NCBI RefSeq assembly: GCF_000315625.1
Contig: NW_005434536.1
Location: 62,001 to 126,000, forward strand
Reading direction: 5' to 3'
Origin: Guillardia theta CCMP2712
Taxonomy: Eukaryota; Protista; Cryptophyta
DNA length: 64,000 bases
The notes beneath the pieces are model-generated. The model was given only the letters and a program-made list of their open reading frames with translations. It did no database searches and was not told the DNA's origin. Position numbers and translations under genes: made by a program. How positions within the stretch are numbered: position 1 is the first letter of the stretch; each line of letters starts with the position of its first letter. Positions 6,478-6,862 of this stretch are shown piece after piece.

Positions 6478-6862
6478 TGGGTCCCCAGGGAAAGGCCCCC
6501 CCTTGGCCAGAATCTGAAAACCGTTAAACCGTTAAACCGTTAAACCGTTAAAGGTTAACGGTCTTTAAAACCTTTAAAGAAGGTTCGCCGGACAGTATAC
6601 GTATAGTATGTATATAGTATATAGTATGTATGTATATGTATGTATATGTATGTATGTATATACATAGTATGTATATGTATGTATCTATGTATGTAATATA
6701 TGTATATATATATATATGTCCTGCGAACCTTATTTAAAATGATCAAAGGAGAAGAATCGCCGGATGATGGTTGAAGGTTTTAACGGTTTAACGGTTTAAC
6801 GGTTTAACGGTTTCCAGATTCTGGCCAGGGGGGGGCCTTTCCTGGGAGACCCGGCTGTATAA
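6478..6862. repeat. Large imperfect palindrome, copy 1: GC-rich arms, 4x AAACCGTT on each side, inner 15-bp inverted repeat, AT-rich (TA/TATG)n core; candidate origin or packaging element
   Basis: Left arm gggtccccagggaaaggcccccccttggccagaatctg-(aaaccgtt)4; right arm (aacggttt)4-ccagattctggccaggggggggcctttcctgggagaccc; inner aaggttcgccggaca (6580) / tgtcctgcgaacctt (6717). Confidence 0.9.

What the first reader, a model, noticed from the sequence alone, without database searches (positions are those of the whole stretch)
6478..6862. Iteron-flanked AT-rich palindrome: candidate mirusvirus replication origin or packaging signal
Seen: a nested inverted structure with GC-rich arms carrying C7/G8 runs, four AAACCGTT octamers per side, an inner inverted AAGGTTCGC(C/A)GGACA pair and a ~120-bp TA/TATG core. 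Known: alphaherpesvirus oriS is a palindrome with an AT-rich centre flanked by inverted CGTTCGCAC boxes; herpes pac signals use C/G runs; TAACGG fits the Myb consensus YAACKG. Inferred: a protein-bound unwinding element. I know of no described mirusvirus cis-acting origin, so this is the best candidate here for an undescribed system.
Basis: partly seen in the sequence, partly recalled or inferred. Interest (0 to 1): 0.85.

Follow-up and report, generated by a model that had tools for sequence, protein, structure and literature searches.

The report
Repeated mirusvirus replication-origin palindromes
This palindrome is one of a family of repeated DNA elements in what is likely a mirusvirus of cryptophyte algae, and the virus's base composition flips strand at both copies seen, so they are likely start points for copying its genome, a signal we found no description of for this virus group.

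Summary
The palindrome is real but not unique. A second copy lies at 51,351-51,720 (left arm lost in an N gap), an orphan left end lies at 5,744-5,791, and laid sequencing data show at least 5 left and 4 right flanks. Copies keep the arms and AACCGTT arrays but change the AT core; copy 2 lacks the herpes-like inner pair. The window looks like a cryptophyte mirusvirus: its capsid gene matches Guillardia theta and environmental proteins, and a homologue folds like herpes/HK97 capsids. The two cores are the window's least stable duplexes. Strand asymmetry (G/T over C/A) switches at both copies and reverses near their midpoint, at silent codon sites and, independently, between genes. That is the footprint of bidirectional origins; some measures miss copy 1. 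Best reading (0.62): a dispersed set of replication origins, built like SaPI or herpes origins and repeated like baculovirus hrs. Its likely order, Styxvirales, is reported to lack a DNA polymerase. Packaging signal and UL9 box are not supported. No binding protein was identified. The scan earlier noted a similar layout in another giant virus (e1-5403236).

The parts
6450..6478 (+). Left-type end (A-run plus about 23 conserved nt), outside the inverted arms; shared with the orphan end and with other copies
   Evidence: D4; loose ends at 6436-6454
6479..6552 (+). Left arm of copy 1: GC-rich part with C7 (6496-6502), then four AAACCGTT (6518-6549)
6553..6594 (+). Left spacer with one flipped, one-mismatch site at 6557 and the left inner box 6573-6594
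   Evidence: (I7)
6595..6716 (.). TA/TATG core, about 81% AT, 94% purine-pyrimidine alternating; second least stable 100-bp duplex of the window; predicted unwinding element
6717..6778 (-). Right inner box 6717-6738 and 40-nt spacer; the 6725-6796 part exists in at least 3 further variants in run X1
   Evidence: table 8
6779..6852 (-). Right arm of copy 1: four inverted octamers (6782-6813), G8 (6828-6835)
6853..6871 (+). Right-type end with TATA-like motifs, 84-94 nt before the ATG of ORF 6952-7794; shared with copy 2
51351..51720 (+). Copy 2, same orientation: rest of left array, two AACCGTT-N6-AACGGTT dyads, 247-nt self-palindromic AT core (111-nt arms, 86%), three right octamers, G9, right-type end. 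Left arm falls in the 138-N gap 51213-51350
5744..5791 (+). Orphan left end (48 nt, 96% to 6454-6501) that breaks off inside the C run; lies inside a 1136-nt duplication unit
   Evidence: (D4)
5188..6375 (.). Duplication unit bounded by a perfect 52-nt direct repeat (5188-5239, 6324-6375); holds a GIY-YIG ORF (5271-5645, minus), the orphan end and a 143-aa ORF
   Evidence: (D3)
58564..59979 (+). Primase-like (AEP-like) ORF 7 kb from copy 2; possible trans-acting partner, link untested
27327..31090 (+). Major capsid protein gene in two ORFs (27327-29414, 29903-31090); identifies the virus group, not part of the element

Best explanation
The element is one member of a dispersed, multi-copy palindrome family that likely serves as a set of bidirectional DNA replication origins in a likely cryptophyte-infecting mirusvirus. 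Shown: two inward-facing arrays of the AACCGTT site flank the most easily melted DNA of the window, the arms are kept between copies while the cores vary, both copies are intergenic, and strand asymmetry changes sign at them. Inferred: a sequence-specific protein binds the arrays on both sides, the AT core opens, two helicases load and forks leave in both directions, meeting forks from the next copy about 45 kb away. Inferred further: because this virus group is reported to lack a DNA polymerase, the machinery loaded would be largely the host's nuclear replisome, perhaps helped by the viral primase-like protein. The binder is not identified; a virus-encoded initiator outside the window and a host Myb-type protein are both open. 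The TATA-bearing right end may also act as promoter or enhancer for the next gene, as baculovirus hrs do.
For: Anatomy. All 14 AACCGTT sites of the window lie in the two copies, 0 elsewhere against 2-5 expected (weak). Cores rank 1 and 2 for duplex instability. The right arm and end are nearly identical in both copies, while cores are 124 vs 247 nt. At least 5 left and 4 right flanks occur, with arm depth about 4-fold (X11 raw reads) to at most about 15-fold (X1 contigs) over flanks. The cumulative GC-skew minimum is at 51,865. At silent sites, T-A skew in genes pointing away vs toward the nearest copy is +0.26 vs -0.09 (25 vs 20 genes, p=0.0006; copy 1 alone p=0.011, copy 2 alone p=0.013), and the true pair ranks 1 of 400 intergenic pairs. 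Detrended minima lie at 51.1-51.2 kb in 3 of 4 gene sets and maxima at 25-27 kb in all 4. Intergenic keto skew over 51 segments gives a side effect p=0.0009 with gene orientation as covariate; all 6 segments left of copy 1 are negative and the best switch below 20 kb is 6643. Styxvirales lack DNA polymerase (PMC12768974).
Against: G-C and keto skew at silent sites show nothing at copy 1 (p=0.65, 0.41), and whole-window G-C is p=0.075. The two-origin likelihood prefers a left origin at 1-4 kb; the true pair ranks 27 of 4560. With the strictest 23-gene set the T-A minima move to 10.4 and 60.9 kb. The 8 best intergenic pairs put the right switch at 43-52 kb; the true pair ranks 15 of 566. Many measures were tried on two copies, neighbouring genes are not independent, and p-values are uncorrected. 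No similar element in 124 kb of three distant mirusvirus contigs. No candidate initiator or helicase was found in the window. Placement in Styxvirales and absence of a polymerase are inferred from papers, not tested for this virus.
Confidence: 0.62

Rival explanations
1. Non-autonomous foldback or MITE-like selfish element. The arms and octamer arrays are transposase-binding ends and the core is filler.
For: Multi-copy with different flanks; long inverted arms with internal subrepeats; palindromic putative MITEs exist in pithoviruses and pandoraviruses (PMC10664404); an orphan end sits beside a GIY-YIG gene.
Against: Conserved sequence runs past the inverted arms into different left and right ends. 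The only direct repeats of 4 nt or more around candidate edges use bases inside the conserved ends. Copies are few, not hundreds. A skew switch at both copies is not expected of passive inserts.
Confidence: 0.12
2. Transcriptional enhancer or promoter platform only. The arrays bind a host or viral factor, the core excludes nucleosomes, and the right end supplies a TATA box.
For: Both right ends carry TATA-like motifs 84-153 nt before an outward ORF; TAACGG fits the Myb consensus (recalled, from the finding); hrs are enhancers (PMC6669502).
Against: The skew effect extends over 10-20 kb and persists after accounting for coding strand and flanking-gene orientation. It does not exclude the origin role.
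Confidence: 0.13
3. Episome tethering or segregation array for a persistent nuclear genome, like the repeat arrays of gammaherpesvirus latent replicons (recalled).
For: The DNA is present in runs dated 2011, 2021 and 2026; related large scaffolds sit in a cultured cryptophyte assembly; episomal mirusviruses are reported (PMC10827195).
Against: Does not need a meltable core or explain the skew switch; arrays are short.
Confidence: 0.07
4. Genome cleavage/packaging signal or site-specific recombination site, with the C/G runs as pac-like motifs.
For: C7/G8 runs are conserved; the orphan end breaks inside the C run.
Against: Internal copies 45 kb apart in one orientation would cut a roughly 200-kb genome into pieces; both flanks of copy 1 continue into unique genes; one breakpoint is a single event.
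Confidence: 0.06

Closest known systems
Baculovirus homologous regions (hrs)
   Same: Intergenic, AT-rich, palindromic family repeated around a large nuclear DNA virus genome; hrs act as redundant origins and enhancers bound by IE-1 (PMC6669502, passages).
   Different: hrs are built of about 30-bp imperfect palindromes. Here each unit is one 420-bp polar palindrome with inward arrays around a simple-repeat core. No IE-1 match was found, and the virus realm differs.
SaPI/PICI iteron origins
   Same: Short repeats, half on each side of a central AT-rich region, pointing in opposite directions (PMC9371898, passages).
   Different: The SaPI ori is single and lies right after its rep helicase gene. 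Here copies are dispersed, and the only Walker A motif in an identified gene is that of the nucleotide kinase.
HSV-1 oriS / UL9
   Same: Inverted boxes pointing at an alternating AT centre; the inner GTTCGC pair of copy 1 has the orientation of Box I (PMC13458718, passages).
   Different: oriS has an 18-bp AT centre and exact UL9 boxes. Here the core is 122-247 nt, the boxes match 6/10 and 7/10 and are missing in copy 2, and no UL9-like protein was found in the window.
Pithovirus M1/M2 palindromic repeats (putative MITEs)
   Same: Intergenic palindromes with long inverted arms in a giant virus (PMC10664404, passages).
   Different: M1/M2 are about 140 nt, have terminal inverted repeats and a putative TA duplication, and cover 16-18% of the genome. 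This element is about 420 nt, few in number and has unlike ends.

Membership tests
Mirusviricota (the virus carrying the element) | HK97-fold major capsid protein | tested here: met
   The model of homologue P0002 (window MCP halves 67% and 43% identical to it; pLDDT 59) matches herpesvirus capsids at Z 10.4, 365 aligned, rmsd 6.9, then encapsulins and HK97. Foldseek alone gave no match at E<=0.001.
Mirusviricota (the virus carrying the element) | Other hallmark genes (maturation protease, Snf7, portal, terminase, triplex) | tested here: inconclusive
   Snf7 E 1e-14 and prohead-protease-like E 1e-3; portal, terminase and triplex not identified in this partial window.
Styxvirales / clade E03 | Phylogenetic placement and lack of DNA polymerase | not tested
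   Inferred chain: best MCP hit is a G. theta protein; E03 is the cryptophyte clade; six Lake Biwa genomes fall in E03; four Lake Biwa genomes are Styx with polB = 0. No tree was built and the genome is not held.
Baculovirus hr | Multiple dispersed intergenic copies | tested here: met
Baculovirus hr | Built of about 30-bp imperfect palindromes bound by IE-1 | tested here: not met
   The unit is one large nested palindrome; no IE-1 family hit among 56 ORFs scanned.
Baculovirus hr | Origin and enhancer activity in assays | not testable with these tools
   Only indirect skew evidence.
SaPI-type iteron origin | At least two opposed iterons on each side of an AT region | tested here: met
SaPI-type iteron origin | Adjacent rep helicase gene | tested here: not met
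   Neighbouring ORFs show no helicase family or Walker A motif; the rest of the genome is not available.
Alphaherpesvirus oriS | UL9 Box I/II sites | tested here: not met
   6/10 and 7/10 to Box I; 347 window sites reach 7/10; absent from copy 2.
Alphaherpesvirus oriS | UL9-like protein in the genome | tested here: inconclusive
   None among 56 ORFs; only 64 kb are visible.
MITE / foldback element | Inverted repeats at the very ends | tested here: not met
   Conserved ends extend beyond the arms and differ left from right; a decayed outer repeat is not excluded.
MITE / foldback element | Target-site duplication | tested here: inconclusive
   None of 4 nt or more outside the conserved ends of copy 1; 2-3 nt duplications cannot be judged, and copy 2's left flank is a gap.
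MITE / foldback element | Copies in host DNA or empty sites | not testable with these tools
   No genome held; loose ends give only 30 nt of flank.
Herpes pac signal | Position at genome termini | tested here: inconclusive
   Both copies are internal in this assembly; contigs and sheared reads cannot show termini.

The most novel reading that the evidence does not exclude
These are the cis-acting origins by which polymerase-less mirusviruses of about 200 kb recruit the host nuclear replisome: sequence-defined origins spaced about 45 kb apart like those of a eukaryotic chromosome, read by a host Myb-type protein or a new viral initiator. That would be a large virus replicating as a multi-origin minichromosome.
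Probability: 0.35. Interest if true: 0.88.

Novelty: new variant of a known kind. Interest (0 to 1): 0.7.

Why it matters
Medvedeva et al. (PMC12768974) report that styxviruses and okeanoviruses lack DNA polymerase and call this unique among viruses above 140 kb; the parts read do not say how replication starts. This element gives a concrete target: a 7-nt site for pull-down, a core to mutate, predicted fork directions, and related viral DNA in a cultured cryptophyte. It also suggests a genome-wide test, skew switches at palindromes, for the 1,200 available mirusvirus genomes.

Tried and rejected
Whole genome: none held. Pattern scans: 2 viral hits are unrelated tandem arrays; 10 viral and 36 metagenome hits have no arm context, 0 of 46. 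Protein-led scans of viral contigs found no relatives in 5 of 5 tries. Three mirusvirus contigs inside bacterial MAGs (58.9, 52.5, 12.5 kb) hold no such palindrome; 6 weak hits in those MAGs are simple TA repeats on contigs with no window-like genes. Phage collection: no match. Rfam: 5 hits, all far below gathering score. No RNA holder listed; 5 RNA reads from 6% of X10 are uninformative. No read-end pile-ups, but these data cannot show termini. The AlphaFold model of the primase-like protein was unusable (pLDDT 34) and PDB sequence searches gave nothing significant. The 251-aa Cys-rich ORF next to copy 2 has 7 unnamed relatives and no family. CpG is not depleted (0.84-1.0 up to 60 kb), so there is no sign of long methylation-driven decay. 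A poxvirus-type telomere junction was rejected because the flanks are unique on both sides. The two cores align slightly above shuffles (74 vs max 63), so I do not call them unrelated.

Full report
Observation. The nested structure is as described: 74-nt outer arms at 93% complementarity, four AAACCGTT per side, a 22-nt inner inverted pair and a 122-nt TA/TATG core. It is far beyond chance: 9 matches of the doubled octamer against 0.01 expected, and fold z = -19.7. It lies between ORFs 5870-6301 and 6952-7794, both on the plus strand.

It is a family. A second copy sits at 51,351-51,720 in the same orientation; its left arm falls in a 138-N gap. Its right arm and right end are nearly identical to copy 1. 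Its core is 247 nt, itself an 86% palindrome, and lacks the inner GTTCGC pair. The cores share simple-repeat character (best local score 74, shuffle maximum 63). An orphan left end at 5744-5791 breaks off in the C run, inside a 1136-nt duplication with a GIY-YIG ORF. All 14 AACCGTT sites of the window lie in the two copies; 2-5 were expected elsewhere and 0 found, but 52 of 1804 comparable heptamers are also absent, so this is weak. In copy 2 the site also forms two AACCGTT-N6-AACGGTT dyads, which suggests that the site, not the octamer tandem, is the unit (inference).

Copy number. I laid 7 of the 24 listed runs. Among the 11 of 15 loose ends shown there are, with the window's own, at least 5 left flanks besides the orphan and at least 4 right flanks. 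In X1 three parallel variant contigs over 6725-6796 sum to depth 380 against 74-84 in the flanks. Depth at arm positions 6503 and 6828 is about 1150-1240, an upper bound near 15-fold because overlapping contigs are summed; the tool warns that this is no copy number. Raw reads of X11 (a ChIP run, target unknown, 42% read) give about 80-89 on the arms against about 21 in the flanks. Contigs of two lake metagenomes (X6, X7; low word share, but laid) cover the arms, X7 with 1-2 differences and an altered array. Relatives of window proteins lie on contigs of 191, 214, 244 and 260 kb in a Guillardia theta assembly, so the extra copies may be spread over several related viral genomes. Whether any lie in host DNA is unknown.

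The virus. The ORF at 27327-29414 has 565 hits among 7994 scored candidates, best a G. theta protein at 77%. The C-terminal part is a separate ORF. A model of a full-length homologue matches herpesvirus capsid proteins (Z 10.4) and HK97-fold shells, although Foldseek alone was not significant. Snf7 and a weak prohead protease hit fit. Zhao et al. define a cryptophyte mirusvirus clade E03 with 18 MCPs from three assemblies including G. theta (PMC10827195, passages). Zhang et al. place six lake genomes in E03 (PMC11465185, passages and section 17). Medvedeva et al. list four of those lake genomes as Styxvirales of 204-239 kb with no polB (PMC12768974, passages, sections 10 and 12, supplement rows). 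Placement of this virus in Styxvirales is therefore an inference; I built no tree.

Evidence for origins. The two cores are the two least stable 100-bp duplexes of the window (-0.93 and -0.97 against a mean of -1.49). The global minimum of cumulative GC skew is at 51,865. To remove coding bias I used fourfold-degenerate sites in 45 genes chosen by a codon model plus six added by hand; the gene at 1-2100 and DNA past 62.3 kb were left out. Genes pointing away from the nearest copy are richer in T over A (+0.26 vs -0.09, p=0.0006) and in G+T (p=0.007; 3 of 5000 label permutations). T-A holds at each copy alone (p=0.011, 0.013). G-C and keto hold at copy 2 (p=0.011, 0.002, also without its two right neighbours, p=0.005) but not at copy 1 (p=0.65, 0.41). 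Among 400 intergenic pairs the true pair ranks 1 (T-A), 5 (keto) and 8 (G-C). Detrended cumulative curves have minima at 51.1-51.2 kb in three of four gene sets, left minima between 4 and 10 kb, and maxima at 25-27 kb, near the 29-kb midpoint. A free two-origin fit fixes the right origin at 51.5 kb but prefers 1-4 kb on the left; the true pair ranks 27 of 4560. Intergenic DNA is an independent check: in 51 segments keto skew depends on the side of the nearest copy (p=0.0009 with flanking orientation as covariate), all 6 segments left of copy 1 are negative, and the best switch below 20 kb is 6643, inside copy 1. Its right switch is less sharp (43-52 kb; rank 15 of 566). These p-values are uncorrected and rest on two copies. 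That leading strands are G/T-rich is established knowledge, recalled.

Mechanism. Shown: anatomy, multiplicity, meltability, skew pattern. Inferred: arrays bind an initiator on both sides, the core melts, and two forks leave. This is the layout described for SaPI origins (PMC9371898, passages), repeated across the genome like baculovirus hrs (PMC6669502, passages). No helicase or origin-binding protein was found in the window. ORF 58564-59979 keeps DxD, GxH, D and LRxPxS motifs across 13 relatives (motif names recalled), with Atlas look-alikes including an AEP cluster at 0.94 and a weak primase_S hit in 1 of 13 (E 0.027); it is primase-like, not proven. A host Myb-type binder remains an untested idea from the finding.

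UL9 Box I (PMC13458718, passages) matches the inner boxes at 6/10 and 7/10, a level reached by 347 window sites, and copy 2 lacks them. The orientation does resemble oriS. A pac role fits poorly with internal repeats 45 kb apart. Against a MITE, the conserved ends are not inverted copies and no clear target duplication is seen (compare PMC10664404, passages).

Limits. Three distant mirusvirus contigs (MCP 55-60% identical, 124 kb) have no such element. Two of them show one-directional GC skew from near their start over about 45-50 kb, compatible with breaks at origins but not evidence. Collection scans found no relatives.

Novelty. Searches for mirusvirus with 'origin of replication' (4 papers), 'palindrom' (7), 'inverted repeat' (24, 21 listed) and Guillardia plus repeat (2) showed no such element. 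I saw these as listings, except 10.64898/2026.07.28.741200 (one passage) and the papers cited above. 'Repeat' does not occur in the main text of PMC12768974 or PMC10827195. Subscription journals, bioRxiv supplements and most supplementary files were not searched and may bear on this. The scan's notes hold nothing on this genome or sequence; one unchecked note describes a similar layout in a Mimivirus-like virus. Verdict: a real element, a new variant of a known origin design, likely the replication origins of a cryptophyte mirusvirus (0.62); interest 0.7.

Noticed in passing
window 62441-63049: 171-bp tandem repeat, 3.6 copies, 94% alike, each with a telomere-like TAGGGTTAG; followed by gene-poor DNA and, after about 63.8 kb, sequence that looks like an exon with intron edges. 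Possibly a viral end or a virus-host junction.
   Followed up: no
window 27327-31090: The capsid gene is split into separate ORFs; intron or frameshift not resolved. The G. theta homologue on record is also short, 433 aa.
   Followed up: partly
window 5188-6375: Perfect 52-nt duplication of a small gene's 3' end around a GIY-YIG ORF, the orphan left end and a 143-aa ORF. That ORF has a second variant in X1 and close relatives in X6 without the arm upstream.
   Followed up: partly
window 58564-59979: Divergent AEP-primase-like family, 13 representatives at E<=0.001, including cryptophyte records; no Pfam hit for the window protein.
   Followed up: partly
window 51869-52624: 251-aa ORF with two conserved CxxC pairs directly after copy 2; 7 unnamed relatives; a candidate DNA-binding protein.
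   Followed up: partly
window 9045-9202: Short GTGTT/GGTGT tandem arrays and a T/A palindrome between divergent genes, related to the tract at 5720-5750.
   Followed up: no
window 50124-50690 and 49367-50083: Deoxynucleoside monophosphate kinase and Snf7 genes close to copy 2.
   Followed up: no
window 6858-6960: Two sequence variants of the right flank in X1 (depth 52 and 32) and X11, so two near-identical versions of this region coexist.
   Followed up: no
L049, L050, L051 (G001:C2, G002:C303, G003:C146): Mirusvirus contigs with intact MCP genes are binned inside three bacterial MAGs.
   Followed up: partly
L053:7514-7664 and 18830-18980: A 151-nt segment repeated in inverted orientation, 92% alike, in a related mirusvirus contig; part of it looks tRNA-like by eye.
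   Followed up: no
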